64,000 bases of DNA from an uncultured Candidatus Binatia bacterium (GCA_965247985.1 OZ252051.1:252240-316239); one strand, 5' to 3'; counted from the first letter of the stretch, positions 11,767-45,247 are shown. A program made the numbers and translations. The notes: generated by a model from the sequence alone, not told the origin.

Positions 11767-12759
11767 TCAGCGCAGCTTGCCTTCAACAAAGGGGACTTCG
11801 TAGACTTTTTCATGGTTGATAGGTCCGTGCCCGAAATATCCCGCCTCACCAAATAACTCACCGTGGTCTGCGGTAATCGTAATATAGGTGTTTGGCGGCA
11901 CAACATCGAAGAGGCGTTCAAAAACGTCATCGAGGTAGCGCACAGCATTGACTTGTCGCCGGCGGAGGCGGTCGAGTTTGTCTTGATTGAAAAACCGAAC
12001 GCTTTCTTCTTCCGTTTCCGCTAACTGCCCGCCGACCACGGCTTCATCAAGATGCTTAAAGACGCCGTGGACGCCGTGAATCTTCGGCCATTCCTCGCTG
12101 GGCTCGCTGGGTAACGCGTACGGATAGTGAGTCTCTCCAACATTCAACAAATAAAACGACGGCCGGTCAGGAGAGAAAGATAACCGATCAACCATAGCAG
12201 CCATGTCGTTATGGGCTGGCATCAGGGTAAATGAGTCGAAATCCTTATTGAGCAGCGTGGCGGGGTTCAAAACGGGCAGGGAGACCATCGCATGCGTATG
12301 GTAGCCCAGCTTCCATTTTAAGAATGTGGGTAAAAAGAGCTGCGGCACCAGACTTTTGAACTCAATCCGTTCTGCGCCGAGGCGTTCTTGGTATTTGAAA
12401 AAATCCTGTTTGTAATACTCGGAAGCATAGACTTGCTGCGGACTGGAGTGGGGCAGTAGCCCCATCAGCAGGTTGTAATGAGACGGGGCTGTCCAGGACG
12501 CATAGCTCCACCGACGCTGTACCTCCCCCAGGGCACTGACCGTTCTCGGCCGTGCTTCCATAAAGGCATCATAGCGGCAGCTATCAAGGATCACGATGAG
12601 GTAATTATTCCTGCCCTGGGGGAGAGGAAGCTGCGGTGGCGCGGCGACTTGGGAGGGCGTAGCCAGCGGTATCTCAGCCGGCTGAGATACCGCCCCGGAC
12701 TCGCTCCGATTGAAGAGCCGCTTCAAAATACCCATACCTCCCCCTCGCCTACTCCTCAC
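11767..12759 (-). CDS. alkaline-phosphatase-superfamily (sulfatase/phosphodiesterase-like) hydrolase
   Basis: 330 aa with metal-site-like motifs LIVILDSCRYD and ITADHGE. Confidence 0.5.
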   Translation of the reverse strand: MRSRRGGGMGILKRLFNRSESGAVSQPAEIPLATPSQVAAPPQLPLPQGRNNYLIVILDSCRYDAFMEARPRTVSALGEVQRRWSYASWTAPSHYNLLMGLLPHSSPQQVYASEYYKQDFFKYQERLGAERIEFKSLVPQLFLPTFLKWKLGYHTHAMVSLPVLNPATLLNKDFDSFTLMPAHNDMAAMVDRLSFSPDRPSFYLLNVGETHYPYALPSEPSEEWPKIHGVHGVFKHLDEAVVGGQLAETEEESVRFFNQDKLDRLRRRQVNAVRYLDDVFERLFDVVPPNTYITITADHGELFGEAGYFGHGPINHEKVYEVPFVEGKLR

Positions 12760-16255: not shown

Positions 16256-16927
16256 GTGCGACCCGCCGGCGGCTTTACACTGCTTGAACTCCTTATCAGT
16301 CTGACGCTGATGAGTTTGGTCACCCTCGGCGTCTATAGCGCGCTCAGCTTTGGCGCAAACGCGATCGAACGCGGAGAGTCTCGGAGTATTGAGAACCAAC
16401 GTGTCCGGGCGGCTCTTTCACTGATTGTCCGCAAACTGAAGTCCGCCTACCCGCTCATGCTGCTGGTCGAGGGAAAGCGCGTTGTGTATTTTTTTGGTGA
16501 CGCAGAGGAACTCCGTTTCGTGGCCTCTGCCGACCGACCTGAAATCGGCGGTCTGGAGAAGATCTCATACTTCATCAAGGAAGAAGACGGCTCGCGCGGT
16601 CTGTGGATGCGTGTTTCAGCTCCCACCTTACCGGCAGATTTAGCCGAAGAGCGCGAAGGGAGTTTACGCTTGGAGACCGAGGTGCTGGCCGATGTTGATG
16701 AATTGGTCTGGGAGTATTTTGGGAAACAACAAACCGAGGAAGAAGAGTGGCATCAGAGTTGGAGCGGTGAAGAAGTACAGAAACTACCGCAAGCCATCCG
16801 GCTGGCGTGGCGCGCCCAGGTCGGCAATCTGCCAAACGAATGGCAGATCGAAGTACCGATTCATGTTCAGACTCCAATTGCGGGACTGCTTCGCACTCCC
16901 CAGAGCCGCCGCCGGACCCAGAGATAG
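16256..16927 (+). CDS. GspJ-like minor pseudopilin
   Basis: N-terminus GFTLLELLISLTLMSLVTLGV. Confidence 0.7.
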   Translation: MRPAGGFTLLELLISLTLMSLVTLGVYSALSFGANAIERGESRSIENQRVRAALSLIVRKLKSAYPLMLLVEGKRVVYFFGDAEELRFVASADRPEIGGLEKISYFIKEEDGSRGLWMRVSAPTLPADLAEEREGSLRLETEVLADVDELVWEYFGKQQTEEEEWHQSWSGEEVQKLPQAIRLAWRAQVGNLPNEWQIEVPIHVQTPIAGLLRTPQSRRRTQR

Positions 16928-16932
16928 ATACC

Positions 16933-17928
16933 ATGCGGAACGAGCGCGGCGTTGTCCTGCTTGTTGTCATGTGGGCCCTGGTGGTGCTCATGGTTGTTGC
17001 GATTGAGCTGGGCCGTACCGCCCGGGTGGAGGGGCTGAGTACTGATGTCTACCAACAGGAGGTCAAAACCTATTATTTAGCCCTAGCTGGACTGAACCGG
17101 GCACTGTATCAGCTCGTCCAGACGAGCCAGCAGGGCCGCACACGGGATACCCGAGACGATGACCGGCTCGGGCCGCGTGATCGGCTGAATTCTGATGAGG
17201 AAAACCAAGAGGAGTGCCCGGACCCCTGGCTGCTCGGCGACGGACAATGGAAAGATGAACCGTATGGCGAGGGCGGGTATCAGGTCCGCGTCAGTGACGA
17301 GAGCGGTAAAATCAATATCAACCAAGTGGATGAGATTATCTTGCGTCAAACCTTTACCAATCTGGACTTTGATCCGGACTTTGGGGATGCCCTGGCCGAT
17401 GCCATACTCGACTGGCGCGACCCGGATGCGTTAGAGCGGCTGAATGGGGTCGAGAGTGAGTACTACTTGGCGCAAAATATTGCCTATCCGGCAAAGGACG
17501 GACCGTTCGACACGATTGATGAGCTGCTGCTGATTCGTGACGTCACCCAGGAGCTGTTCTACAACACCCTCAATAACGTGTTCACGGTGTATGGGAATGC
17601 ACGAACCGGAAATATGGCCAATGTCCAAACGGCAAACGCCTTGGTGCTCCGGGCCGTACAGGGTATTGATGCGGAAACCGCTGATGAATTGGTCCAGCAA
17701 AGGCAAGAAACCTGCGGGCAAGATTTCCTAGACGCGACTGCTGCCCGGGGAGGTCTCCCCACGCTGGTCACGATAGAGAGCGTCGGCTATCTGCATACCG
17801 GACGTATCACCCGCCGGCTGGCCGGGGTTGTGCACCGCACGGGAGGCCAGTATCAGATGCTGCGCTGGCAAGATCGTCTCCCCTCACCAGCCCTCCCGCT
17901 CAGAAAAGACGCCTTTGAAGACGAGTGA
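16933..17928 (+). CDS. GspK-like minor pseudopilin
   Basis: N-terminus MRNERGVVLLVVMWALVVLMVVAIEL, typical of GspK. ATG at 16933 directly follows the gspJ stop. Confidence 0.7.
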   Translation: MRNERGVVLLVVMWALVVLMVVAIELGRTARVEGLSTDVYQQEVKTYYLALAGLNRALYQLVQTSQQGRTRDTRDDDRLGPRDRLNSDEENQEECPDPWLLGDGQWKDEPYGEGGYQVRVSDESGKININQVDEIILRQTFTNLDFDPDFGDALADAILDWRDPDALERLNGVESEYYLAQNIAYPAKDGPFDTIDELLLIRDVTQELFYNTLNNVFTVYGNARTGNMANVQTANALVLRAVQGIDAETADELVQQRQETCGQDFLDATAARGGLPTLVTIESVGYLHTGRITRRLAGVVHRTGGQYQMLRWQDRLPSPALPLRKDAFEDE

Positions 17929-17969
17929 AGGGGAGGGGTTCTGATCCGGCCCGTCGGATGACGCCCCTG

Positions 17970-17991
17970 GCTAATCCGATCTACGGGACTG
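17970..17991 (-). repeat. REP-like motif R0
   Basis: Minus-strand reading is cagtcccgtagatcggattagc. Confidence 0.7.
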
Positions 17992-17993
17992 TC

Positions 17994-18013
17994 ATTCCTG
18001 CGCAAGCAGGAAT
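17994..18013. repeat. hairpin attcctgc gcaa gcaggaat upstream of the GIY-YIG gene
   Basis: 8-bp perfect inverted repeat with a 4-nt loop. Confidence 0.6.
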
Positions 18014-18026
18014 CCAGGAGTCACCC

Positions 18027-18296
18027 ATGATCGAAAGACAGCCGACCGTGTATATCCTGGCAAGCCACCGCAATGGAACGCTCTATACGGGCGTCACGAG
18101 TCATCTGGTGGCACGAGTGTGGCAGCACAAAAACGACGCGGTTGAGGGGTTTACCAAAAAGTACGGCGTCCACACCTTAGTGTATTATGAAGTGTATGAA
18201 GATATGCTGTCGGCGATCAACAGAGAAAAGCAAATCAAGAAGTGGAAATGGCACTGGAAGCACTCCGCCCACCAAGGGCTGAGCAGCGGGATTTGA
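18027..18296 (+). CDS. GIY-YIG nuclease family protein
   Basis: MIERQPTVYILASHRNGTLYTGVTSHLVARVWQH shows the GIY-YIG motif. It is preceded by the 17994-18013 hairpin and by a REP-like motif. Confidence 0.7.
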   Translation: MIERQPTVYILASHRNGTLYTGVTSHLVARVWQHKNDAVEGFTKKYGVHTLVYYEVYEDMLSAINREKQIKKWKWHWKHSAHQGLSSGI

Positions 18297-18511
18297 CGCT
18301 GAGAATGTGGCATTTCGGAAACTCCATCTTGCGGGTTAACGGACTGACTATTTTGGAGTGAAATCGAGCTCCCATTGGGCCACGCGCTTGTGACTCGATC
18401 AGCACGAAGGCTATTGCCGATAAGACTCAAGTGTAGTCGTATTCGCGATGATGCTTTCCCAATTAAGCCGACACCTCGAAACACCAAGTTAAATTTTGTC
18501 GGGTCAGCGAC

Positions 18512-18770
18512 ATGCCAATCAGATCAATCACACTGTTGTTTCCGGTAATCGTCGGCTGTCTCATCTCCTCCTGCTCCCTGACACCAAATCGAATTCCCCC
18601 GGTTCTCGAAGCAGTTACGGAGTTACCCGACGAGTTTGCCGAAAGTGAAGTTGCCGGCTCATACGAGCCGCTGGAGTGGTGGAAGGCGTTCACCGACCCG
18701 GTTCTCGACCAGGTAATCGAAGCGGTGCTTGCCTCGAACTTCGACCTAGCCGAGGCGACCGTTGCATACC
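18512..18770 (+). pseudogene. N-terminal fragment (about 85 aa) of a NodT/OprM-family efflux outer-membrane lipoprotein
   Basis: Lipobox LISSCSL plus WWKAFTDPVLDQVIEAVLASNFDLAEA. Similarity is lost after about 85 aa. The segment is GC-rich. Confidence 0.5.
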
Positions 18771-18967
18771 TGGCCGCCGACCTCCGGCCCCAGGTACGAG
18801 CCCAGGTGCGGACATACCGCGTCGGCCACGCACACACGGCCTGCTTCGTCGCACCAGGCGACGATTTCCTCGCCCAGCCACGTCTTCTCGATCAGTTTCT
18901 CTCGCAGAATGGACTCGCGGCTTGTGACGAAATACCACCCCTCGGGGAACGCTGGCAACTCATCCAT
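18746..18967 (-). pseudogene. fragment of a Rieske [2Fe-2S] domain protein
   Basis: 73 aa (WYFVTSRESILREKL...VCPHLGSYLG) resembling a Rieske N-terminus including the first CxH box. The second box is absent. Confidence 0.35.
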
Positions 18968-19065
18968 GCTATTCTTTGTTAGAATACTTAATCAGAGATT
19001 CCTCTACAAGTCGCGTACAACAGTACAAGACAGTCTCACCCTTCTCTTTAGGAGGCCTTCTACGC

Positions 19066-19371
19066 ATGAGCGATCAAACCGCTGCGCAAAGCAAGAAGCC
19101 CTCCCCCCGCTCGGAGCACACCTCGACTGACCCGATCGAGGACATGCTGCGGGCCGCGCTCGCCCATCATCGGTCGGGCCGGCCGCAGGCTGCGGCGTCA
19201 CTCTGCCAGCAGATCCTGCGGCAGAACCCCGACCATGCCGACGCCCTACATCTACTCGGCGTGCTCCATGCCCAGGCGGGCCAGTTCGCGGCGGCATTGC
19301 CGCACCTCGTCAAGGCCACACGCCAGGCACCGTGCCACGCTGGCTTCCTGAATAATTACGCCTCCGGCTAA
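19066..19371 (+). pseudogene. N-terminal fragment of an alphaproteobacteria-like TPR-repeat protein
   Basis: AGGAGG 10 nt upstream of ATG 19066. MSDQTAAQSKK...QQILRQNPDHADALHLLGVLHAQAGQFAAALPHL shows TPR repeats. It is truncated after about 100 aa, at REP-like motif R1. Confidence 0.5.
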
Positions 19372-19388
19372 TCCGACCCACGATACTG
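19367..19388 (-). repeat. REP-like motif R1
   Basis: Minus-strand reading is cagtatcgtgggtcggattagc. Confidence 0.7.
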
Positions 19389-19414
19389 CACGCTCGAGGG
19401 CAGAGGAAAGCAGT

Positions 19415-19625
19415 ATTTTCACCAAACCCCGCTTTGGGACCGCCTATCGTGGATATACCGCCCATATCGTAACCAAAGACGAGATGGACGTCTGCATCTG
19501 AGCAGCATTTGGTCCCGGCTTGAAAGGGGTCTGCCTTAGCCGGGCAGCAGTGCCATTTTCACCAAACCCCGCTTTGGGACCGCCTATCGTGGATATACCG
19601 CCCATATCGTAACCAAAGACGAGAT
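19415..19625. repeat. imperfect tandem duplication, 71 identical bp repeated at about 140-bp spacing
   Basis: attttcaccaaaccccgctttgggaccgcctatcgtggatataccgcccatatcgtaaccaaagacgagat occurs at 19415-19485 and 19555-19625. Confidence 0.9.
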
Positions 19626-19959
19626 CGCCCGTATGAAGGGCGAAATCGCCCATCAGGATTCCCCCTTGCATAGGTGCCTTGAGTTTTGCGGACATCCGGA
19701 TGGCGGCGATCAGAAACGAGAGGCAGATGAGCGCCTCGGTCGCGAGGTACGCTCCGGTCTGGATTGCGGGGTTCGTAATGGCCCGCCAAGTGAGGCTTGA
19801 GCCGGAGAAGATGGTGTCCAGGGCGAGGACGTGCCGGACGAACGCCCAGTTGCTCTCGTAGTCGGTGAGGTTCCCGAGCGTGACCAGGAACACCCAGAGG
19901 GCGAGCCCTGCGGTGATCACAATCTTCGAGAGTCGGACGGCGACTGTCTCAGCGTTCAT
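19444..19959 (-). CDS. DUF2165-family small membrane protein with its C-terminus altered by a tandem duplication
   Basis: The N-terminal roughly 135 aa look like a DUF2165 membrane protein. The last roughly 37 codons read through the spacer and the first copy of the 140-bp duplication in a shifted frame. Confidence 0.5.
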   Translation of the reverse strand: MNAETVAVRLSKIVITAGLALWVFLVTLGNLTDYESNWAFVRHVLALDTIFSGSSLTWRAITNPAIQTGAYLATEALICLSFLIAAIRMSAKLKAPMQGGILMGDFALHTGDLVFGYDMGGISTIGGPKAGFGENGTAARLRQTPFKPGPNAAQMQTSISSLVTIWAVYPR

Positions 19960-20065
19960 TGCTGTCCTCCCTGGTGAGCTTGGAAGAGCCGGCCATTGGC
20001 GCTGGCCCGGCGATCCGGTGCCGTGGCGCTCATCTTACACGTTCGCCGGTTCAACCCCAGGTCCG

Positions 20066-20087
20066 CAGTCCCGCAGGTCGGATTAGC
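20066..20087 (+). repeat. REP-like motif R2
   Basis: cagtcccgcaggtcggattagc, flanked by the inverted repeat agtcccgcagg (20067-20077) / cctgcgggact (20102-20112). Confidence 0.7.
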
Positions 20088-20176
20088 GGAGCGTAGTCCG
20101 GCCTGCGGGACTGGCGAGTAACAGCGGAATGGCGTAGGGTAGACGCTCTCTTATCCGTTCTACCAAGGACACAGCG

Positions 20177-20413
20177 ATGAGCCTGAATATCAGAAATGAA
20201 GAGACCTGTCGGCTCGCTGGCGAACTCGCCCGGCTGACGAGTGAGACCATGACCGGTGCTATTACCGTTGCGTTACGCGACCGCTTGGCGTACGAGAAAC
20301 GCCGGCGCAGCGTGGAGGCCCGGGCTCAAAAGATTCACGCCATCGGCCAATATTGTGCCTCTCTATCTGAGGCCAGGGCCAGCGGCCGTAGAACACGGGG
20401 ATATGCTTTATGA
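20177..20413 (+). CDS. vapB: VapB-type antitoxin (Rv0623-like)
   Basis: MSLNIRNEETCRLAGELARLTSETMTGAITVALRDRLAYE matches this antitoxin family. Its stop abuts the vapC start. Confidence 0.75.
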   Translation: MSLNIRNEETCRLAGELARLTSETMTGAITVALRDRLAYEKRRRSVEARAQKIHAIGQYCASLSEARASGRRTRGYAL

Positions 20414-20431
20414 TGAGCGGGGCTTGCCCAG

Positions 20432-20777
20432 GTGATTATCGACACGTCGGCGATCCTGGCTGTCCTGTTCGCCGAGCCGGATACGGAACGCTACGAAAAA
20501 GCCATAGCCGCGGCCTCGCCTTGCCGGATGTCGGTCGCCAATCTGCTTGAAGCGTCAATCGTGGTCGAGAGTCGTGGCGACGGAGATCGAGTTGATACCG
20601 GTCACGCGTGAACAGGCCGCGGCCGCTCGTCAGGCGTGGCGACGCTTCGGCAAGGGCAATCATCCAGCAGCGTTGAATTTTGGAGACTGCTTCGCATATG
20701 CGCTCGCACAAACGAACCGCGAGCCTCTTCTGTTCAAGGGCGAGGATTTCGCCCGGACCGATGTCGAGGTGGCCTGA
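20432..20777 (+). pseudogene. vapC: VapC PIN-domain toxin with an internal deletion and frameshift
   Basis: GTG 20432 frame gives VIIDTSAILAVLFAEPDTERYEKAIAA...ESRGDGD, then stops. A different frame from about 20583 gives EIELIPVTREQAAAARQAWRRFGKGNHPAALNFGDCFAYALA...FKGEDFARTDVEVA. About 12 residues are missing at the junction. Confidence 0.6.
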
Positions 20778-20899
20778 CGCGCCTGATCGTGGGCCAGAAC
20801 CTCCCCCGACCCGAACCAGGCCGACGATCTGGAGTGGCTCCGGGCTCGTCCAAGACTCTTCGGAGGTAGTTTGTGTGGGCGGCTTCAATACCAACAAAA

Positions 20900-20921
20900 T
20901 AGTTCCGTAGGTCGGATTAGC
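20900..20921 (+). repeat. REP-like motif R3
   Basis: tagttccgtaggtcggattagc, followed by the partial palindrome gcgtaagccgac. Confidence 0.7.
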
Positions 20922-20968
20922 CTAGCGTAAGCCGACATTTCCGGCTAAGGCGAATCGCTGTCCCCTTG

Positions 20969-21205
20969 TCACGCCTCCTCATCTTCCAGTTCCGATTCCA
21001 GTAATTCCTCTTGTTCTTCGAGACGCACCTGGAGCGTACTCAGCGCTTCAAATACGGCACTCACCGCTTCCTGAAAGTCATCCTCGGCACTGACCACTCC
21101 GGCTGCCACGCGCTCTTCACAATCCCGACTCACCTCTGCAATGGACAGTTTGGCTGATTTCACTAAGCCGATCCATTGACCGATAATCGCAAGCGCATCT
21201 TCCAT
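20969..21205 (-). CDS. small acidic coiled-coil hypothetical protein (78 aa)
   Basis: Strong SD AAAGGAGG 8 nt upstream of ATG 21205. The remainder of the 304-aa track ORF overlaps the thiolase gene and is rejected. Confidence 0.5.
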   Translation of the reverse strand: MEDALAIIGQWIGLVKSAKLSIAEVSRDCEERVAAGVVSAEDDFQEAVSAVFEALSTLQVRLEEQEELLESELEDEEA

Positions 21206-21280
21206 CCGATCTGCCTCCTTTCTGCCTGCACCATCCCCTGGTAGACTAGGGTCCTCACATCTACAGGAAAGGGGAACAGT

Positions 21281-22483
21281 ATGCGACAGGTTGCACTCGT
21301 TGGAGCGGGGATGACGCACTTTGGCAAACATGTGGATCGCAGCATGAAAGATTTGGCCCGGGAGGCGATTGAAGGCGCCGTGCAATCGGCAGGGGTCAGC
21401 CCGCAGGATATTGAGGCCGCGGCCGTGGGGAATGCGGTGGCCGGCTTGATCACCGGACAGGAGTGTATCCGGGGGCAGGTCGTGCTGCGTGAGCTCGGCA
21501 TTGGGGGCATCCCGGTCATTAATACCGAAAATGCGTGTGCCAGCTCTTCCACCGCCTTTCATCTGGCCTGGCTCTACGTTGCGTCCGGGATGTATGACGT
21601 TGTGCTCGCGCTCGGGATGGAGAAGCTCTTTCATCCAGATAAGCAGCGGACGTTCCAGGCGATTGGCAGCGCAATCGATCTCGAGCAGGCCGAGACGTTT
21701 GCCAGAGAGATGAGCGGCGAGCAAAGCGCGGGAGCCGGTCAGTCCCGAAGCGTTTTTATGGATTACTATGCTAACCTCGCCCGGCAGCATATGCAGCGCT
21801 ACGGCACAACGCAGAAACAGTTCGCCCGCATCGCCGCCAAGAATCATACCAACGGGAGCTTGAATCCTCATGCCCAGTATCAAACCCGCCGCTCGGTCGA
21901 AGATGTGCTAGCAGCGCCACTCATTGCGGACCCGCTCACCCGCATGATGTGTTCTCCCATTGGCGATGGCGCAGCGGCTGTCCTCGTGACAACAGCCGAC
22001 AAAGCGCGCCAACTCACAACACAGCCGGTCTATGTCAAAGCTTCTACTTTGGGTTCAAGCAAGAAACACGATGCAGATACCCCTGGTATCGTCCCGTCAG
22101 TCGCCCACAAGGCATACGAGCAAGCTGGGCTTGGACCGGATGATCTCCAGGTTGTTGAGGCCCACGACGCCACTGCTCCAGCCGAGCTCCTTGTGTATGA
22201 GGAATTGGGTCTGTGCCAAGCCGGCGAGGGCGGGAAACTCATTGATGAGGGCGTGACACAGCTTGGTGGACGCTGCCCGGTCAATCCGAGTGGCGGTCTC
22301 CTCGCCAAAGGCCATCCGGTCGGTGCGACCGGAGTTGCCCAGATCTGTGAAATATTCTGGCAGCTCCGTGGCGAGGCCGGCGAGCGGCAGGTAGAGGGCG
22401 CAAAAGTGGGCCTGACCGAAAACGGCGGCGGCGTGCTTGGCGGCGAAAACGCGGCAGCGTCCATCCACGTGTTTAGCGTCTGA
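21281..22483 (+). CDS. thiolase-like protein (SCP-x / acetyl-CoA acetyltransferase-like)
   Basis: 400 aa with thiolase N- and C-terminal domains and active-site region NTENACASS. Confidence 0.85.
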   Translation: MRQVALVGAGMTHFGKHVDRSMKDLAREAIEGAVQSAGVSPQDIEAAAVGNAVAGLITGQECIRGQVVLRELGIGGIPVINTENACASSSTAFHLAWLYVASGMYDVVLALGMEKLFHPDKQRTFQAIGSAIDLEQAETFAREMSGEQSAGAGQSRSVFMDYYANLARQHMQRYGTTQKQFARIAAKNHTNGSLNPHAQYQTRRSVEDVLAAPLIADPLTRMMCSPIGDGAAAVLVTTADKARQLTTQPVYVKASTLGSSKKHDADTPGIVPSVAHKAYEQAGLGPDDLQVVEAHDATAPAELLVYEELGLCQAGEGGKLIDEGVTQLGGRCPVNPSGGLLAKGHPVGATGVAQICEIFWQLRGEAGERQVEGAKVGLTENGGGVLGGENAAASIHVFSV

Positions 22484-24843: not shown

Positions 24844-24930
24844 AGCAACGCTATCCTGACTCCCCATTTGTCTTCACCAGGCTTGTCTGGAGGCTGGGCT
24901 ATGGAGTAAGATTCCACATTATTTTTCTGT

Positions 24931-25004
24931 GCCCCCGTAGCTCAGTAGGATAGAGCACCGGATTCCTAATCCGGGTGTCGTGCGTTCGAATCGCGCCGGG
25001 GGCA
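24931..25004 (+). tRNA. tRNA-Arg (anticodon CCU)
   Basis: Cloverleaf with acceptor stem GCCCCCG/CGGGGGC, anticodon loop UUCCUAA and T-loop TTCGAAT. Confidence 0.85.
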
Positions 25005-25038
25005 GTTTTCTTCTCAGCGCGGGATATGCGGGCTACAA

Positions 25039-37830: not shown

Positions 37831-39114
37831 TTAGCCACGGATATTTTTAAGCACCGTCCTGGCGGCACGTATGGTTTCTTGGATTTCGTCCTCGCTGTGC
37901 GCCAAGGAAATAAAGGCGGATTCGAATTGAGAGGGTGGAAGGTATATGCCCTGCTCAATCATACCGCGAAAGTAACTGGCGAACATTTTTGTATCGCTCT
38001 GAGTTGCCGTGTCATAGTCGCGCACGTGGTCTACCCCAAAGAAAACAGTGAACATCGAACCCATTTGGTTCACACAGGCTTTTATGTCAGTCTCACGAAT
38101 GACATTGCGCAGTCCCTTGGCCAGCATATCTCCAAGCATATTCAGCCTCTCATAGGCTCCAGCGGCGTGAACGAGCTTTAACGTTTCAATCCCAGCGGTC
38201 ACAGCCAACGGATTGCCAGACAGCGTCCCAGCTTGGTAGACCCCCCCCAATGGGGCAAGCACGTCCATTATCGCCGCTTTTCCGCCAACCGCGGCCAATG
38301 GGAGGCCACCGCCCACAACTTTCCCTAAGCAGGTGAGATCCGGATCGATGTTGTAGACCTCTTGAGCTCCGCCACGTGCTACACGGCAGCCGGTCATCAC
38401 CTCGTCAAAGATGAGCACAACTCCCAACTCCCGGGTGAGTTCTCGTAGACCTTCAAGGAAGCCTTGCTCGGGCGGCACGAGGCCCATATTTCCAGGAACA
38501 GGCTCCAGTATGACAGCCGCCACCCCCTCTGAATCAGCCTCTAGATACGCCCGTACACTAGAGAGGTCATTGTACTCCGCCACAAGCGTCAGGCTGCTAA
38601 ATGCCTCGGGAACGCCTTGACTGTCTGGGGTGCTGAGCGTAAGCGCACCGGACCCAGCTCTCACAAGAAGCGCGTCAGTATGACCATGATAGCAGCCAGA
38701 GAATTTTATGATCTTTGCGCGACCAGTATAGCCGCGAGCGAGACGCAGGGCGGTCATGGTCGCTTCTGTACCCGAGGAGGTCAGGCGGACTTTCTCGATT
38801 GACGGAACGGTCTGAGTAAGCGTTCTTGCGAGCTCAATCTCTTTTGCAGTTGGGGCACCAAAACTTGTCCCTTGTTTCACAACCCGCTCAAGTGCACCAA
38901 CAACCTGCGGATGAGCATGTCCTGCTATTAAAGGTCCCCAGGAGCCTACATAGTCTATATACTCGCGCCCATCCGTATCAGTGACGCGACACCCTTTCCC
39001 CCTGTGGATAAAAAGAGGGTCACCACCAACGGCCCGCCACGCACGAACCGGGCTGTTCACTCCACCTGGGATATATTTTTGCGCTTCATTAAAGAGTTTT
39101 TGCGATGTTGACAT
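37831..39114 (-). CDS. hemL: glutamate-1-semialdehyde 2,1-aminomutase
   Basis: 427-aa class III aminotransferase with a canonical HemL N-terminus. Confidence 0.95.
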   Translation of the reverse strand: MSTSQKLFNEAQKYIPGGVNSPVRAWRAVGGDPLFIHRGKGCRVTDTDGREYIDYVGSWGPLIAGHAHPQVVGALERVVKQGTSFGAPTAKEIELARTLTQTVPSIEKVRLTSSGTEATMTALRLARGYTGRAKIIKFSGCYHGHTDALLVRAGSGALTLSTPDSQGVPEAFSSLTLVAEYNDLSSVRAYLEADSEGVAAVILEPVPGNMGLVPPEQGFLEGLRELTRELGVVLIFDEVMTGCRVARGGAQEVYNIDPDLTCLGKVVGGGLPLAAVGGKAAIMDVLAPLGGVYQAGTLSGNPLAVTAGIETLKLVHAAGAYERLNMLGDMLAKGLRNVIRETDIKACVNQMGSMFTVFFGVDHVRDYDTATQSDTKMFASYFRGMIEQGIYLPPSQFESAFISLAHSEDEIQETIRAARTVLKNIRG

Positions 39115-39299
39115 CTACGTCTACCCACGTCCCAGTTCAGCCACTCCGGACTTTATCAAGCCAGACTTTCATTGAGATTTCCCCTGCTACCACCCGCCCA
39201 CAAGAGAGTCAAGATAAAAGAGATTTTCCCATCAGAATATCGAATTTTCCCGGAAATATGAGACTTTACTCTTTCTCCCGGTGTCCTCTTATAGAAACT

Positions 39300-39740
39300 G
39301 ATAACAAAATGTGATGCCTTCACCCCTTTTTTTTACGACCGACGTGCTCAGAAATGATTAAAAAAACAAATAGATACGAACCCCCTCTTTCAAGGCTATT
39401 ATTTTTCATATTATCACTTCGTGTTATGCATTGGATTTTATCTAGCGATATCCGCTGCTTTGGAAAAATCCTGATTTTTTTCTTGCGTTCTTTAGAGAAA
39501 AAGTTTAAGACGCAGGGGTCCTATCCTCTCTGGTCTGATAGATTTTAAGCGGCATATTGATTCGAGTAGATATGGGTCTTCTTCTCGCCCTCCTGACCAT
39601 GCGGTCGGTGAACGGGGCTTCCCCGGGGCAGAAGGCTAGACAGAGGGACAAGTGCGTGTGGATAACTCTTTTACCGGATGGACATTTCATTAGTTTGCAG
39701 AGGAAGTTATCGAGTTATCCACACCTGTGGATAACTTCAT
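39300..39740. promoter_or_regulatory. AT-rich tract plus three DnaA boxes upstream of dnaA (dnaA promoter / upstream origin half)
   Basis: TGTGGATAA 39657-39665, TTATCCACA 39715-39723, TGTGGATAA 39726-39734. AT-rich tract 39325-39520. Confidence 0.75.
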
Positions 39741-39765
39741 ACGTTGAGCGGCGTAGGGGTGTGGT

Positions 39766-41097
39766 ATGTATCGGGTGTGGGAACGGGTGTTGGGGATTGT
39801 TGAGGGAAAAGTAGGAAAGACGAATAGTGAAACCTGGCTAAAACCGATTCGCCCCCTTGGACTACAAGATGACACGTTCCATCTTGAGGTGCCAAGCGCG
39901 CTCTTTAAGGATTGGTTACTCAGTAATCTCGTCGGCCCTTTAGAAAACGCATTGACTGAGGTTCTTGGTCAGCCAACGCACCTCATATTGCATGTACAGG
40001 AAAAACCACAAGGAGAACTCTTCCTGGAAGAAGAGAAAAAACAAACAGCCGAGGAAAAGGAAAAAGGGGGAGGAAAGAGAAACGGACTTATTCAGAACTA
40101 TACATTTTCCTCCTTTGTTGTGGGTGGCGGTAATCAGTTTGCTCATGCCGCGGCTACGGCAGTCAGTAAACACCCAGGGAAAAGCTACAATCCGTTGTTC
40201 ATTTATGGAGGAGTTGGGTTAGGAAAAACTCATCTCATTAATGCTATTGGTCATGAGACATCGATAAAGAAAGGAAAGGACAATATTGTCTATCTTTCTT
40301 CAGAGTCTTTTACCAATGAATTGATTGTTCATTTACGAAAGAACCGGATGACGGAATTTAAAAATAGATTTCGTCGTGCGGATGTTCTCATTCTTGATGA
40401 TGTGCAGTTCCTGTCCGGTCGTGAGCGGACACAGGAGGAATTTTTTCACACCTTTAATTCTCTGCACGAGTCGAGTAAGCAGATTGTATTAACGTCCGAT
40501 AAATTTCCAAATGAGATTGGCGGGCTAGAAGAGCGGTTACGAAACCGTTTTGAATGTGGATTGATTGCTGACATTCAGCCACCCGACCTCGAGACTCGGG
40601 TAGCAATTCTGCAAAAGAAATCACGCGCAAAACGTATCTCCCTCCCCGACGATGTTGCCCTTTTTATTGCCTCTCATGTTACTTCAAATGTCCGAGAGCT
40701 TGAGGGCGGCCTGACGCGATTAGGAGCGCTGGCAGCCTTAAATCAGGCTGATATTACTGTCAACTTTGCACGCCAGGCCCTCCAAAACTTAGTCACAGCC
40801 AAGGAAAAGGAAGTCTCGATTGAGACCGTACAGAAAACTGTGAGTAAGTATTTTGGTGTCAGCGTTGCTGATATTACCTCAAAGAAACGGACAAAGCTGG
40901 TTTTGTTTCCAAGACAGATTAGTATGTTTCTCTGCCGCAAGCTCGCCGGCGCCTCCTACCCAATGATTGGAATGCGATTTGGAGGAAAAGATCATACTAC
41001 GGCTCTGCATGCCTGTACTACCATTGAAAAGCGGTTCAAAAAGGATGAAGAGCTTCGTGATATTATCAATAGAATAGAAATCATGATCTATGATTAG
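39766..41097 (+). CDS. dnaA: chromosomal replication initiator DnaA
   Basis: 443 aa with AAA+ Walker A GGVGLGKTHL and a C-terminal DnaA-box-binding domain. Confidence 0.97.
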   Translation: MYRVWERVLGIVEGKVGKTNSETWLKPIRPLGLQDDTFHLEVPSALFKDWLLSNLVGPLENALTEVLGQPTHLILHVQEKPQGELFLEEEKKQTAEEKEKGGGKRNGLIQNYTFSSFVVGGGNQFAHAAATAVSKHPGKSYNPLFIYGGVGLGKTHLINAIGHETSIKKGKDNIVYLSSESFTNELIVHLRKNRMTEFKNRFRRADVLILDDVQFLSGRERTQEEFFHTFNSLHESSKQIVLTSDKFPNEIGGLEERLRNRFECGLIADIQPPDLETRVAILQKKSRAKRISLPDDVALFIASHVTSNVRELEGGLTRLGALAALNQADITVNFARQALQNLVTAKEKEVSIETVQKTVSKYFGVSVADITSKKRTKLVLFPRQISMFLCRKLAGASYPMIGMRFGGKDHTTALHACTTIEKRFKKDEELRDIINRIEIMIYD

Positions 41098-41497
41098 ACT
41101 GTCTTTCCTGTGGATAACCTGTGGATAACCTGTGGATAACCTGTGGATAACCTGTGGATAACCTGTGGATAACCTGTGGATAACCTGTGGATAACCTGTG
41201 GATAACCTGTGGATAACCTGTGGATAACCTGTGGATAACCTGTGGATAACCTGTGGTCTGGGAAAAGTTATCCACAGGTATCCACAGGTATGGCGAAGTT
41301 ATCCACACCCCCTGTGGATAACTTTTCCCAGAATAAACAAATACTTAACCCACTTATCCACATATCCACAGGCCCTACTACTACTATTAGTACTTCTATA
41401 TATTAATAAGTAGTAGAATAAGTAGTAGTAGTAAGAAAAATGAGAATAAAAATCAGAGAAAAGACTATGGTTAATAAAAGGAAGGAAAGGGGGGTAT
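41098..41497. other. putative oriC in the dnaA-dnaN intergenic region
   Basis: 13-box array, plus boxes at 41268-41276, 41299-41307, 41313-41321 and 41354-41362, then an AT-rich DUE-like tract 41378-41490. Confidence 0.8.
41109..41249. repeat. 13 perfect head-to-tail DnaA boxes (TGTGGATAA) at an exact 11-bp period
   Basis: Unit cctgtggataa x13 followed by a degenerate copy tgtggtctg. Confidence 0.95.
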
Positions 41498-42646
41498 ATG
41501 GAATTCAGCGTCAGTAAGGAAGACCTCCTTCAGTGCCTATATCTAGTCCAGGGTGTTGTTGAAAAACGCTCCTCCCTCCCTATGCTCTCCCATGTTCTAA
41601 TTGAATCTAACTCCACGGAAGAGAAAGATGGAGGCATCTCTCTTGGAGCAACAGATCTTGAAATTGGAATCCGCCAACAATGTCAGGCAGAAGTAAAAGC
41701 GTCTGGATCAATGACAGCAGATGCAAGAAAGCTGTACGAGATCATTCGTGAGCTGCCGTCCGGTCAAGTCTATTTACGCTCAAGTGGAAACGGATGGGTG
41801 GAGGTCAAGAGCGGCAAGTCTCGGTTCCGGATCGCAAGTCTTGATCCCAAGGAGTTTCCCACAATAACAGCACAGAAAGAATCGAGCGAGGAACCTCCTG
41901 CTTCATCATTCCTATCTTTACCTGGACCAACCATGCGGGAGATGATTGAAAAAACCCTCTTTGCAACCTCACCGGACGAGACACGACTGAACCTCAGCGG
42001 TGTCTATCTTGAGACCTCGGCCGAGGGAAAGGTTCGCATGGTCGCCAGTGACGGTCACCGCCTCTCTCTTATAGAAAAAAAAATGGACGCCTCTCCTTTA
42101 CCCGATTGGCCGAGCGTTATCCTTCCGAAAAAGGGTCTGGTGGAAACACGGAAACTTCTTGAACGAAGCGAAGGAACAATAGAGGTCTCCCTCAGCGACT
42201 CGGTGATGAACCTCAAGAAAGAAACAACGGAACTTTTTATGCGTCTGATAGAAGGGGATTTTCCTGACTACCAGCAGGTCGTTCCAAAAGATCATACGCA
42301 CTGCGTTAAGTTTCTCCGAGATGAGCTCCTCTTTGCGCTCCGTCGGATTTTGATTCTGACAACAGAACGATCTCGGGGGGTGAAATTACAGTTCGGGAAG
42401 GACAAGATCGAGGTTTCAGTCAATACTCCAGACGTGGGGGAAGGGACAGAGGAGATTGCGGCTTCATACGCCGGAGATGGATTATCAATCGGGTTTAACG
42501 GGAGATATTTGACAGAGGCATTGAATGTCATAGATGAAGGAGATTCCGTCGTCCTTCTTCTCAAAGATGAGATGAGTCCTGGGCTCCTACAGACGGAAGA
42601 AAACAGTGAATTTTTATATGTCATAATGCCTATGAAAATAAACTAA
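41498..42646 (+). CDS. dnaN: DNA polymerase III beta sliding clamp
   Basis: 382 aa with three-domain clamp architecture. Confidence 0.95.
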   Translation: MEFSVSKEDLLQCLYLVQGVVEKRSSLPMLSHVLIESNSTEEKDGGISLGATDLEIGIRQQCQAEVKASGSMTADARKLYEIIRELPSGQVYLRSSGNGWVEVKSGKSRFRIASLDPKEFPTITAQKESSEEPPASSFLSLPGPTMREMIEKTLFATSPDETRLNLSGVYLETSAEGKVRMVASDGHRLSLIEKKMDASPLPDWPSVILPKKGLVETRKLLERSEGTIEVSLSDSVMNLKKETTELFMRLIEGDFPDYQQVVPKDHTHCVKFLRDELLFALRRILILTTERSRGVKLQFGKDKIEVSVNTPDVGEGTEEIAASYAGDGLSIGFNGRYLTEALNVIDEGDSVVLLLKDEMSPGLLQTEENSEFLYVIMPMKIN

Positions 42647-42708
42647 TAGAAAATCGTTTTAATAAAACCTATGGTTTACGTAAGATAGAGGAAATGTTAG
42701 AGTTTTAG

Positions 42709-45165
<2,457 letters not shown>

Positions 45166-45247
45166 TTCCACAATAACAGGCCAGTAGTGCTTATCTTATT
45201 TTAGGCATTCACGCTCCCCGTTGTAATCAAAAAGGAATCTCCTTTGT

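What the first reader, a model, noticed from the sequence alone, without database searches (positions are those of the whole stretch)
17930..20950. GC-rich mosaic of truncated, alphaproteobacteria-like gene remnants between gspK and the thiolase locus
Within about 3 kb lie an efflux-OMP N-terminus (about 85 aa), a Rieske fragment, a TPR N-terminus with a strong SD, a DUF2165 gene with a rearranged tail, and vapBC with an internal deletion. All are markedly more GC-rich than the flanking genes, and their best resemblance is to Rhizobiales-type proteins. Every gene is incomplete or damaged, and REP-like repeats lie between the segments. This looks like a decaying horizontally acquired patchwork or a recombination hotspot. 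An assembly chimera is the alternative.
Basis: partly seen in the sequence, partly recalled or inferred. Interest (0 to 1): 0.65.

Follow-up and report, generated by a model that had tools for sequence, protein, structure and literature searches.

The report
Decayed cargo in a genome hotspot
This 3-kb run of broken gene remnants in an uncultured Binatia bacterium is the eroded cargo of a chromosomal spot where related species keep gaining, swapping and losing accessory (mostly defence) genes; it is real, but it is an ordinary kind of genome feature.

Summary
The gene remnants are real. Four GTAG-type REP hairpins occur here and nowhere else in the 64 kb.

Two claims fail. GC is 0.586, against 0.578 and 0.602 in the flanking genes, and tetranucleotide use is unremarkable. 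No Rhizobiales affinity was found.

In 19 related Binatia genomes this interval ranges from 89 bp to over 10 kb. It holds an intact RND efflux operon, a type ISP restriction-modification gene, toxin-antitoxin pairs, other defence candidates and IS elements.

Independent assemblies share the window's odd joins: OMP|Rieske with L005, and REP-tail-DUF2165 with L002. This rules out a chimera everywhere except around the TPR piece.

Shared fragments are 90-97.5% identical, while four-fold sites of core genes are only 60-73% identical. The cargo therefore moved between lineages recently. Further erosion came from microhomology deletions and a duplication.

REPs mark several module borders, but a causal role is only inferred.

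Verdict: an eroded horizontal-transfer/defence hotspot, a new member of a known kind, of modest interest.

The parts
16807..17928 (+). gspK, last gene of the type II secretion operon; conserved left border of the hotspot
   Evidence: Pfam T2SSK_1st/T2SSK. It is present in all 19 relatives at 70-84% aa identity.
17947..17991 (+). REP1, a GTAG-type REP hairpin immediately after the gspK stop codon; it is the crossover point between two kinds of neighbourhood
   Evidence: REP HMM hit, E 1.8e-10. In the three-way alignment the sequence to its left follows L007/L008/L013 and the sequence to its right follows the L005 REP-GIY unit.
17991..18017 (+). 27-nt hairpin GTCATTCCTGCGCAAGCAGGAATCCAG that precedes the GIY-YIG gene
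   Evidence: Single copy in the window. DNA fold -9.3 kcal/mol, z -4.4. In L005, inverted copies flank the intact GIY-YIG gene.
18027..18296 (+). GIY-YIG nuclease pseudogene; homology to the intact 97-aa L005 copy ends at 18260 (residue 78), followed by a deletion scar at 18260-18304
   Evidence: Pfam GIY-YIG positions 3-72 of 78. tblastn 84.6% over residues 1-78. About 255 bp are missing relative to L005.
18305..18757 (+). Upstream region plus codons 1-82 of a NodT-family efflux outer-membrane lipoprotein; remnant of an RND efflux operon
   Evidence: 92-97% nt identical to L004, L005, L008, L013, L017, L018 and L019. The intact OMP-MFP-RND operon is present in 7 relatives.
18758..18772 (.). 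15-bp remnant left by two deletions totalling about 270 bp relative to L005
   Evidence: Alignment A1.
18773..18967 (-). Rieske [2Fe-2S] N-terminal fragment (about 65 codons) joined head-on to OMP codon ~177; the same junction is present in L005
   Evidence: Pfam Rieske positions 2-51 of 88. 97.5% nt identity to L005 17561-17762, with the identical join GCCGCCG|ACCTCyGGCCCCAGG.
18978..19354 (+). Orphan segment: AT-rich 88 bp, a Shine-Dalgarno sequence and TPR codons 1-97 (ORF 19066-19371, whose last 4-5 codons and stop come from REP2)
   Evidence: TPR families in Pfam. Only a self hit among 5.8 billion proteins. At most 43% identity to long TPR proteins among 1.84 billion representatives. No match in any fetched locus.
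19349..19388 (+). REP2, whose left arm is truncated by the TPR junction and which no longer folds
   Evidence: REP HMM hit, E 8.7e-8. Fold -2.4 kcal/mol, z -0.15. L002 has the intact REP at the same place after its restriction-modification gene.
19389..19665 (.). Non-DUF2165 'tail' shared with L002; it contains a 140-bp insertion/duplication with perfect 71-nt direct repeats at 19415-19485 and 19555-19625
   Evidence: L002 has a single copy at 94.5% identity.
19666..19959 (-). DUF2165 N-terminal 98 codons (the C-terminal ~75 residues are lost); the annotated ORF 19444-19959 is a chimera
   Evidence: Pfam DUF2165 positions 2-103 of 157. tblastn of intact homologues stops at 19666. Decayed copies sit at the same hotspot in L002 and L006.
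20066..20113 (-). REP3, an extended palindrome; left border of the vapBC module
   Evidence: REP HMM hit. Fold -20.6 kcal/mol, z -5.4. Homology to the L028 vapBC begins at 20110.
20177..20413 (+). vapB pseudogene (+1 frameshift near 20365; the true C-terminus ...EHGDMLYDERGLPR is out of frame)
   Evidence: Pfam PSK_trans_fac positions 1-67 of 82. Alignment A4 to L028. ORF 20256-20435.
20432..20777 (+). vapC (PIN) pseudogene: a 41-nt deletion between direct repeats GGCGGCG/GGCGACG at 20575/20576, causing a frameshift
   Evidence: Pfam PIN positions 1-52 and 64-118 of 120 in two frames. Alignment A4. Family members are 127-128 aa against 114 aa when reconstructed.
20900..20945 (-). REP4, downstream of the small gene; conserved right border of the hotspot
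   Evidence: REP HMM hit, E 5e-13. Orthologous REPs are present in L002, L005, L007 and L016.
20969..21205 (-). Small acidic 78-aa gene of unknown function, convergent with gspK; with the thiolase gene (21281-22483) it forms the right flank
   Evidence: Conserved next to the thiolase in 12 relatives. No Pfam family. Thiolase confirmed by NCBIfam.

Best explanation
The region is the eroded cargo of a hypervariable chromosomal hotspot. The hotspot lies between two convergent conserved genes: gspK, and a small acidic-protein gene next to a thiolase. It sits about 19 kb from dnaA in a chromosome-scale Candidatus Binatia genome.

Shown:
- The same interval in related species is either empty or holds quite different accessory modules. 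These include an RND efflux operon, a type ISP restriction-modification gene, toxin-antitoxin pairs, other defence candidates, IS elements and a GIY-YIG nuclease.
- The window's copy is a chain of module remnants that also occur, more complete, in other Binatia genomes.
- Several of its abnormal junctions are identical in independent assemblies.
- Its shared fragments are far more similar between species than neutral sites of the core genes.

Inferred:
- Modules enter by recombination with DNA from other Binatia lineages. They can also move between at least two hotspots.
- They are then lost piecemeal by illegitimate events. Examples are a 41-nt deletion between 7-nt direct repeats in vapC, nested deletions in the OMP and GIY genes, an inversion-type join of OMP to Rieske, and a 140-bp duplication/insertion.
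- The GTAG-type REP hairpins that flank modules probably act as preferred breakpoints or crossover sites.

None of the seven genes is intact, so the segment most likely has no protein-level function today.
For: 1. Variable interval. It measures 89 bp (L011), 155 bp (L015), 0.6-8.2 kb (10 genomes) and more than 10 kb (7 genomes).

2. Cargo in relatives.
- NodT OMP + MFP + RND operon.
- Type ISP/IIG restriction-modification gene.
- HicAB and HTH antitoxin-like genes, and DDE transposases.
- ThiF/E1 + DUF6527, DUF5131/PDC-M30B, and HsdR_N.

3. Shared junctions.
- Window 17946-18977 is colinear with L005 16266-17775, including the OMP|Rieske join.
- The REP2-tail-DUF2165 stretch and the spacer-REP4 stretch are shared with L002. 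L002 has deleted the equivalent of window 19710-20820.

4. Age of the fragments. They are 90.4%, 93.2% and 97.5% identical to L005, and 94.5-97% identical to L002, L004 and L008. By contrast, thiolase four-fold sites are 0.60-0.71 identical and gspK four-fold sites 0.63-0.73. Core intergenic DNA is 0.5-0.75 identical.

5. Cargo shared with a second locus.
- The window's vapBC is about 91% identical in aligned columns to vapBC next to a type ISP restriction-modification gene in the L011 genome.
- That gene is homologous to the hotspot genes of L001, L002 and L005.
- A DUF5131 module is 92% identical between L001 and a second locus of the L006 genome.

6. REPs.
- All 29 REP HMM hits with E<0.01 fall inside the hotspot, which is 24% of the 452 kb searched.
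- REP1 is the crossover between L007-type and L005-type neighbourhoods.
- The TPR junction lies inside the left arm of REP2.
- The vapBC module starts at the edge of REP3.
- The indel of the ORF163 module starts exactly at a REP stem.

7. Microhomology at the vapC deletion.
Against: - No recombinase, integrase or RAYT gene was found in the window near the site. The agent of exchange is therefore unknown.
- Core sequence immediately flanking the hotspot shows no clear tract of raised identity to L005 or L002. Import by homologous recombination in the flanks is not demonstrated.
- Only about 4 of 12 breakpoints coincide with REPs. A rough hand calculation, not a tool result, gives a binomial p of about 0.01. 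REPs also sit naturally at gene ends, so their causal role is weak.
- The orthologous REP hits are not independent.
- The TPR segment (18978-19354) has no counterpart anywhere, so its two junctions have no independent support.
- The DUF2165 copy in L006 is only 82% identical. At least that gene may be an old resident rather than recent cargo.
- The fragments are short (200-450 nt), so the identity estimates are noisy.
Confidence: 0.8

Rival explanations
1. Assembly chimera: the mosaic was produced by a metagenome assembler jumping between genomes at short repeats such as the REPs.
For: Four 23-nt repeats lie at segment borders. The source is a MAG (for the relatives; for the 4.48-Mb source contig). 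The TPR segment has no relative in any other assembly.
Against: Independent chromosome-scale assemblies of different species contain the same abnormal junctions. These are OMP|Rieske plus REP-hairpin-GIY in L005, and REP-tail-DUF2165 and spacer-REP in L002. Both flanks are syntenic with 12 relatives. The exact ORFs lie on one 4,480,886-bp contig. A chimeric insert of 377 bp would be shorter than long reads; that the source is a long-read assembly is an inference.
Confidence: 0.03
2. A patchwork acquired directly from Alphaproteobacteria/Rhizobiales, recognisable by its high GC.
For: The TPR piece (GC 0.672) and the Rieske piece (0.633) are GC-rich. DUF2165 occurs on some Ensifer, Martelella and Bartonella plasmids.
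Against: - Overall GC (0.586) equals that of the flanks, and tetranucleotide use is not an outlier.
- Plasmid DUF2165 hits are at most 48% identical and are mostly Ralstonia, Burkholderia-group and actinobacterial.
- The best DUF2165 and VapC relatives (70-75%) include Binatia chromosomes; the one named VapC hit is a Caldilineaceae MAG and the one named DUF2165 hit (60%) a Pseudomonadota MAG.
- OMP, GIY, Rieske, the DUF2165 tail and vapBC all have 83-97.5% nt matches in Binatia genomes.
Confidence: 0.05
3. An integron-like cassette array (CALIN), in which the repeats are attC sites and the small genes are cassettes.
For: Small genes, including a toxin-antitoxin pair, are separated by imperfect palindromes.
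Against: No R''(RYYYAAC)...R'(GTTRRRY) pairs occur in 17.9-21.0 kb. The repeats instead carry the GTAG tag and 9-bp stem of REPs. Gene orientations are mixed. No integrase was found in the window near the site or in any relative's hotspot.
Confidence: 0.02
4. Active REP-directed cassette shuffling: a REP-recognising enzyme (a RAYT or another recombinase encoded elsewhere) moves REP-bounded modules between hotspots, and the remnants are by-products of its errors.
For: - REPs are confined to the hotspot in 452 kb.
- Single genes are bracketed by inverted REPs with the GTAG ends facing inwards. Examples are ORF163 in six relatives, ORF195 in L005 and DUF2165 in the window.
- There is a crossover inside REP1.
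- REP-ended modules are shared between two hotspots.
Against: - No RAYT or Y1 transposase was seen. The genes inside the REP pairs have no Pfam match.
- Most breakpoints are not at REPs.
- REP2 and REP4 are themselves degenerate.
- The same REP family occurs as ordinary intergenic doublets next to housekeeping genes in unrelated GC-rich metagenome contigs.
- Known RAYTs are thought to move only REPs/REPINs (abstract of PMC3733652).
Confidence: 0.12

Closest known systems
Chromosomal hotspots of horizontal gene transfer (Oliveira, Touchon, Cury & Rocha 2017, PMC5635113)
   Same: Here, one interval between the same two conserved genes concentrates gene gain and loss with rapid turnover. Many such hotspots lack recognisable mobile elements (abstract). 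This interval ranges from 89 bp to more than 10 kb, its content is almost never shared, and most versions have no integrase.
   Different: That paper links such hotspots to frequent homologous recombination in the flanking core genes. I could not show a recombination tract in the flanks. The comparison here is between species (about 80-87% nt identity), not between strains of one species.
Defence islands at dedicated integration hotspots (Hochhauser, Millman & Sorek 2023, PMC10121019)
   Same: The cargo in relatives is dominated by defence-type genes: type ISP/IIG restriction-modification, toxin-antitoxin pairs, E1-like + DUF6527, and DUF5131/PDC-M30B.
   Different: In E. coli the defence cargo is usually carried on identifiable mobile elements such as prophages, ICEs and transposons (abstract). 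Here only IS fragments occur in 4 of 19 versions. The window's copy carries only dead genes and also a remnant of a non-defence RND efflux operon.
GTAG-tagged repetitive extragenic palindromes (REPs) and their RAYT transposases (Di Nocera et al. 2013, PMC3733652; Nunvar et al. 2010, PMC2817692)
   Same: The repeats are short palindromes of about 40-45 nt with a 9-bp stem and an unpaired GTAG at one end. They lie downstream of genes and between convergent genes, often in inverted pairs (abstract).
   Different: A further 7-8 nt beyond GTAG (GGGACTG) is conserved. Copy number appears low and, in the DNA I could see, is confined to accessory modules rather than genome-wide. No RAYT gene was found, and the phylum (Binatia) is outside the taxa named in that abstract.
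Integron cassette arrays / CALINs
   Same: Both are runs of small genes separated by imperfect palindromes, including a toxin-antitoxin pair.
   Different: There are no attC core sites, no integrase and mixed gene orientation. This is a resemblance of layout only.

Membership tests
HGT / integration hotspot between conserved core genes | The same flanking conserved genes are present in related genomes | tested here: met
   gspJ and gspK flank the left side in all 19 relatives. The small gene and the thiolase lie on the right within 10 kb in 11 relatives. In L015 the small gene is present but the contig ends before any thiolase could be seen.
HGT / integration hotspot between conserved core genes | Highly variable gene content and size of the interval, including empty sites | tested here: met
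   The interval ranges from 89 bp to more than 10 kb. In L011 the two stop codons are about 18 bp apart.
HGT / integration hotspot between conserved core genes | Evidence that the content is transferred rather than inherited vertically | tested here: met
   Fragments are 90-97.5% identical, against 60-73% at four-fold sites of the core genes. Modules are shared with a second locus in other genomes.
HGT / integration hotspot between conserved core genes | Raised homologous recombination in the flanking core genes | tested here: inconclusive
   Sliding-window identity in the flanks shows no clear tract. Proper recombination inference needs whole genomes.
Defence island | Clustering of several recognised defence systems | tested here: met
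   Met in relatives only. PADLOC and Pfam detect a type IIG/ISP restriction-modification gene, an E1-like protein, PDC-M30B/DUF5131, HsdR_N and HicAB. In the window itself only a dead vapBC and a dead GIY-YIG remain.
GTAG-type REP | Short imperfect palindrome able to form a stem-loop | tested here: met
   A 9-bp stem is paired in 91.5% of cells across 25 copies, with one compensatory A-T to C-G change in 2 copies. Folds are: REP3 is strong, and REP2 has lost its stem.
GTAG-type REP | Conserved unpaired GTAG at one end of the stem | tested here: met
   CCTAC(GGGACTG), which reads as GTAGG on the other strand, is nearly invariant next to the stem.
GTAG-type REP | High copy number dispersed in extragenic regions of the genome | not testable with these tools
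   Only 64 kb of this genome and about 21 kb of each relative are held. Within them all 29 hits lie in the hotspot. An exact 20-mer scan of public metagenomes found only 5 contigs.
GTAG-type REP | A cognate RAYT (Y1 transposase) gene flanked by the REPs | tested here: inconclusive
   The REP-flanked ORF163 and ORF195 gave no Pfam or PADLOC hit, and DUF2165 hit only the DUF2165 family; none is a Y1 transposase. The rest of the genomes was not visible.
Integron cassette array / CALIN | attC sites with R''/R' core motifs (RYYYAAC ... GTTRRRY) | tested here: not met
   0 pairs in 17.9-21.0 kb, with 0.28 expected.
Integron cassette array / CALIN | Cassettes co-oriented, with an integron integrase in complete integrons | tested here: not met
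   Orientations are mixed. No integrase was found nearby or in the relatives' hotspots.
VapBC type II toxin-antitoxin | Intact PIN toxin (~128 aa) and intact antitoxin in an overlapping operon | tested here: not met
   PIN is split over two frames by a 41-nt deletion, and vapB is frameshifted. The sequences belong to the family but are pseudogenes.

The most novel reading that the evidence does not exclude
In these Binatia genomes a low-copy GTAG-type REP, with a conserved GGGACTG extension, is not a general genome-wide repeat. Instead it is the boundary element of mobile single-gene or few-gene modules carrying defence, toxin-antitoxin and other cargo. These modules are shuffled by REP-directed recombination between at least two chromosomal hotspots and between species. 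This would be an integron-like cassette economy without attC sites or an integron integrase.
Probability: 0.1. Interest if true: 0.7.

Novelty: new member of a known kind. Interest (0 to 1): 0.3.

Why it matters
It shows that an odd-looking 3-kb 'junkyard' in a metagenome-assembled genome is genuine biology rather than misassembly. It also shows that an uncultured phylum (Binatia/Binatota) has the same kind of gene-turnover hotspot, loaded with defence genes, that is known from well-studied bacteria.

In practice it identifies a site, and a second one between an alcohol dehydrogenase and an alpha/beta-hydrolase/Rieske oxygenase cluster, where new defence or accessory systems of this phylum can be looked for. 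It also warns annotators that the ORFs called here are pseudogene chimeras. Two of the exact chimeric ORFs are already in public protein collections.

The REP association is a testable lead on how modules are cut and joined.

Tried and rejected
- Exact look-ups of the window's thiolase and of the DUF2165 ORF to find the source contig returned nothing on record.
- tblastn of VapB against plasmids found no match.
- An Rfam scan of 17-22 kb gave only two chance-level hits.
- A scan of viral contigs for the REP 20-mer found none, so there is no sign of phage origin.
- Cluster-member look-up to obtain organism names for the VapC and DUF2165 relatives returned no names. Taxonomy could be inferred only by matching contig lengths to the Binatia chromosomes.
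- The Rieske and TPR genes next to vapBC in the L011 genome (L028) looked like possible parents of the window's fragments, but they share no detectable similarity with them. Rejected.
- I checked whether tRNA-Arg at 24930-25005 marks an integrase-borne island. The next gene is an aminotransferase. Rejected.
- The low-GC block at 39-45 kb was a suspected second foreign island. It is the dnaA-dnaN-gyrB-gyrA origin region. Rejected.
- Covariation support for the REP stem is weak because the copies are too similar.
- ORF163, flanked by inverted REPs, was tested as a possible RAYT and has no family match.

Full report
WHAT IS IN THE SEQUENCE

Between the stop codon of gspK (17928) and the stop codon of a small minus-strand gene (20969) there are seven recognisable genes. 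None is intact.

- GIY-YIG nuclease gene (18027-18296). It matches Pfam positions 3-72 of 78. It aligns to an intact 97-aa copy in relative L005 only up to residue 78.
- Efflux outer-membrane lipoprotein (18512-18757). Only the first 82 codons and the upstream region (from 18305) remain. Seven relatives have the full 550-aa NodT-family protein followed by the adaptor and RND pump genes.
- Rieske fragment (18773-18967, minus strand). It covers profile positions 2-51 of 88.
- TPR ORF (19066-19371). It has AGGAGG 10 nt before its ATG. Its last codons and its stop codon are supplied by a REP.
- DUF2165 (minus strand). It is homologous to intact 170-183-aa proteins only for residues 1-98 (19959 down to 19666). 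The rest of the called 171-aa ORF is unrelated in every frame.
- vapB. It has a +1 frameshift near 20365.
- vapC. It has lost 41 nt between two GGCGGCG/GGCGACG repeats at 20575/20576. This explains the two PIN half-matches in different frames and the 114-aa reconstructed length against 127-128 aa in the family.

Repeats are also present.

- A 23-nt motif occurs four times here and nowhere else in the 64 kb; none is expected by chance.
- A perfect 71-nt direct repeat (19415-19485 and 19555-19625) marks a 140-bp insertion/duplication that L002 lacks.

WHAT IS NOT CONFIRMED

The region is not markedly GC-rich.

- Its GC is 0.586, against 0.578 for gspK and 0.602 for the thiolase.
- Only the TPR piece (0.672), the Rieske piece (0.633) and one spacer are high.
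- The GIY and OMP pieces are below the flanks.
- The tetranucleotide distance to the window is at the 77th percentile.
- The truly deviant part of the window is 39-45 kb, which is the replication origin region.

No Rhizobiales affinity could be shown.

- DUF2165 hits on plasmids are at most 48% identical. They are mainly Ralstonia and Burkholderia-group, with a few alphaproteobacterial and actinobacterial records.
- The best DUF2165 and VapC relatives in 5.8 billion proteins are 70-75% identical. Some sit on contigs whose lengths equal those of the Binatia chromosomes.
- The TPR piece has no relative above generic TPR similarity (at most 43%) in 1.84 billion representatives.

COMPARATIVE EVIDENCE

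A scan of one genome per species with GspK returned 19 loci. Eighteen are Candidatus Binatia MAGs and one (L007) is labelled Thermodesulfobacteriota. Many are complete chromosomes, and GspK identity is 70-84%. The exact window ORFs are on record from a 4,480,886-bp contig. The source is therefore a chromosome-scale assembly of another species of this group.

In 11 relatives the small gene and the thiolase lie downstream of gspK, as in the window. In a twelfth, L015, the small gene is there but the contig ends before the thiolase. The distance varies widely.

| Interval size | Genomes |
|---|---|
| 89 bp (two stop codons about 18 bp apart) | L011 |
| 155 bp | L015 |
| 0.6-8.2 kb | ten others |
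| More than 10 kb (thiolase not reached) | L003, L004, L008, L013, L017, L018, L019 |

The contents differ almost completely between genomes.

- RND efflux operon: the seven genomes with intervals over 10 kb.
- Type ISP/IIG restriction-modification gene: L001 (split), L002, L005.
- Toxin-antitoxin genes: HicAB in L005; HTH antitoxin-like genes in L002 and L007.
- Other defence candidates in L001: ThiF/E1-like + DUF6527, an HsdR_N protein, and DUF5131/PDC-M30B.
- A cytidine/guanine-type deaminase in about eight genomes and an unknown 163-aa ORF in six.
- DDE transposases: L003, L004, L014, L017.

This is the signature of a gene-turnover hotspot as defined by Oliveira et al. (PMC5635113). Its cargo is that of a defence island (PMC10121019).

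THE WINDOW'S MOSAIC IS BUILT FROM BINATIA MODULES, AND ITS JUNCTIONS ARE REAL

Window 17946-18977 is colinear with L005 16266-17775. The shared order is REP, 27-nt hairpin, GIY-YIG, OMP upstream region, OMP N-terminus, then the head-on join of OMP codon ~177 to Rieske codon ~65. The junction sequence is identical in both: GCCGCCG|ACCTCyGGCCCCAGG. Relative to L005 the window has lost about 255 bp at the GIY 3' end and about 270 bp inside the OMP remnant. L005 has its own nonsense codon in the OMP.

The REP2-tail-DUF2165 stretch, including the point where DUF2165 homology ends, is shared with L002, as is the spacer before REP4. In L002 these two stretches are joined directly. L002 has therefore deleted the equivalent of window 19710-20820, and the window's order is the older state. 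L006 has another decayed DUF2165 at the same site.

The vapBC pair is about 91% identical in aligned columns to vapBC at a different locus of the L011 genome. There it follows a type ISP restriction-modification gene homologous to the hotspot genes of L001, L002 and L005. A DUF5131 module is 92% identical between the L001 hotspot and that second locus in the L006 genome.

Because independent assemblies of other species reproduce the joins, an assembly chimera is excluded for everything except the two junctions of the orphan TPR segment.

AGE OF THE FRAGMENTS

| Sequence compared | Identity |
|---|---|
| Shared fragments, window vs L005 | 90.4%, 93.2%, 97.5% |
| Shared fragments, window vs L002, L004, L008 | 94.5-97% |
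| Thiolase four-fold degenerate sites, same genomes | 0.60-0.71 |
| gspK four-fold degenerate sites | 0.63-0.73 |
| Core intergenic DNA | 0.5-0.75 |

Dead gene pieces should diverge at least as fast as four-fold sites. They must therefore share a much more recent ancestor than the genomes do. The cargo, already partly decayed, moved between lineages.

I could not see a tract of raised identity in the adjacent core genes, so the route of import is not shown. The DUF2165 copy of L006 is only 82% identical and may be an old resident.

THE REPEATS

Each unit reads TGTCGGATTACGC-loop-GCTAATCCGAC-CTAC-GGGACTG. It has a 9-bp stem, paired in 91.5% of cells over 25 copies, with one compensatory A-T to C-G change. 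An unpaired GTAG on the other strand adjoins the stem. This fits the GTAG-tagged REP super-family (PMC3733652).

An HMM built from 15 copies finds 29 hits with E<0.01 in the window plus the 19 loci. All lie inside the hotspot, which is 24% of the 452 kb searched. More copies lie next to cargo at the second locus. The orthologous copies are not independent, but within the window alone 4 of 4 fall in 4.8% of the sequence.

Several borders coincide with REPs.

- REP1 is the exact switch point between an L007/L008/L013-type left side and an L005-type right side.
- The TPR join is inside the left arm of REP2.
- The vapBC module begins at the edge of REP3.
- REP4 closes the hotspot.
- The indel of the ORF163 module in L018 and L003 starts at a REP stem.

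Three single genes are bracketed by inverted REPs with the GTAG ends facing inwards: ORF163, ORF195 of L005, and the window's DUF2165.

Against a causal role:

- About two thirds of the breakpoints are not at REPs.
- REP2 and REP4 are degenerate.
- No RAYT was seen.
- The same REP family occurs as ordinary intergenic doublets beside housekeeping genes in unrelated GC-rich metagenome contigs.

I therefore treat REP-mediated breakage or crossover as a plausible contributor, with a probability of about one in three, and not as established.

MECHANISM

Shown:

- The interval is hypervariable and bounded by convergent conserved genes.
- Its cargo belongs to the Binatia accessory pool and is shared between species and between two loci.
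- The cargo has decayed through a microhomology deletion (vapC), nested deletions (GIY, OMP), an inversion-type join (OMP|Rieske), a frameshift (vapB) and a 140-bp duplication/insertion.

Inferred:

- Modules are imported by recombination with DNA from related lineages.
- REP hairpins act as preferred break or crossover sites.
- There is no present protein function, because every gene is broken.

COMPARISON WITH KNOWN SYSTEMS AND NOVELTY

The site behaves like, and meets the tested criteria of, a horizontal-transfer hotspot / defence island. Its repeats meet the structural criteria of GTAG REPs. It fails the tests for an integron cassette array: there are no attC core pairs, no integrase, and gene orientation is mixed.

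It is a new member of a known kind, in a phylum where such sites have not, to my knowledge, been described. A literature search found only general Binatota genomics and sponge-metagenome notes. Whether these particular MAGs come from sponges was not established.

Interest is modest (0.3). The one lead that could raise it is the apparent restriction of a low-copy REP family to mobile modules.

Noticed in passing
window 38700-47800: This is the replication-origin region: dnaA 39766-41097, dnaN 41498-42646, gyrB 42769-45165, gyrA 45248-47764. It has the lowest GC of the window (0.39-0.42 in the blocks around 39.0-41.5 kb), the cumulative GC-skew minimum near 39.5 kb, and the most deviant tetranucleotide windows. 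The hotspot therefore lies about 19 kb from dnaA.
   Followed up: partly
L005 15900-16670 (and window 17991-18017): In L005 the intact 97-aa GIY-YIG gene is flanked by inverted copies of a 27-nt hairpin (GTCATTCCTGCGnAAGCAGGAATCCAG). A second 3' remnant of the gene, with its own hairpin, lies 300 bp upstream. Solo hairpins occur elsewhere (L002 4667, L016 2614, L007 12404). This looks like a small selfish GIY-YIG unit, but that was not tested.
   Followed up: partly
L028 (L011 genome, 414-425 kb) and L030 (L006 genome, 1.55 Mb): A second variable locus lies between an alcohol dehydrogenase/GST and an alpha/beta-hydrolase-Rieske oxygenase-MFS cluster. It carries a type ISP restriction-modification gene plus vapBC in one genome. 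In the other it carries vapBC-REP-219aa-DUF5131-418aa-REP. These cargo families, and the REPs, are the same as at the gspK hotspot.
   Followed up: partly
L007 11198-11829 (also L008, L009, L010, L012, L013): A conserved 163-aa ORF has no Pfam, NCBIfam or PADLOC match. It is bracketed by inverted REPs directly after gspK and is followed by a cytidine/guanine-type deaminase gene. Its function is unknown. The whole REP-ORF-REP unit is absent from L018 and L003.
   Followed up: partly
L024, L025, L026 (metagenome contigs Ga0209536_100357829, MKWU01010455.1, MKWU01008867.1): The same REP family, up to 35 nt identical to the L005 copy, occurs as inverted doublets and clusters. These lie between housekeeping genes on GC 0.63-0.65 contigs unrelated to Binatia. 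The family is therefore not phylum-specific.
   Followed up: partly
window 19415-19625: A perfect 71-nt direct repeat is separated by a 69-nt insert. Part of the insert resembles the sequence just downstream of the small gene, next to REP4 (inverted repeat I6). L002 has a single copy. The perfect identity suggests a very recent event.
   Followed up: partly
window 20969-21205 (-): A small 78-aa protein with a strongly acidic C-terminus (...EEQEELLESELEDEEA) and no family match is conserved next to the thiolase in 12 relatives. The 304-aa ORF listed at 20969-21883 is an artefact that overlaps the thiolase gene.
   Followed up: no
window 24930-25005: tRNA-Arg(CCT) lies 4 kb right of the hotspot. 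It is followed by a class I/II aminotransferase, not an integrase, so there is no sign of a tRNA-targeted island.
   Followed up: yes
window 19444-19959 and 19066-19371: The chimeric DUF2165 ORF (171 aa) and the truncated TPR ORF (101 aa) are already present as predicted proteins in public collections (P0001 and P0144, sources NCBI and ENA). These pseudogene products have therefore been annotated as proteins.
   Followed up: yes
L001 11151-14591: The type ISP restriction-modification gene of L001 is split into 214-aa and 897-aa ORFs. L017 keeps only an 85-nt 3' remnant of it next to a REP (12208-12292). Decay of this cargo is therefore widespread among the relatives.
   Followed up: partly
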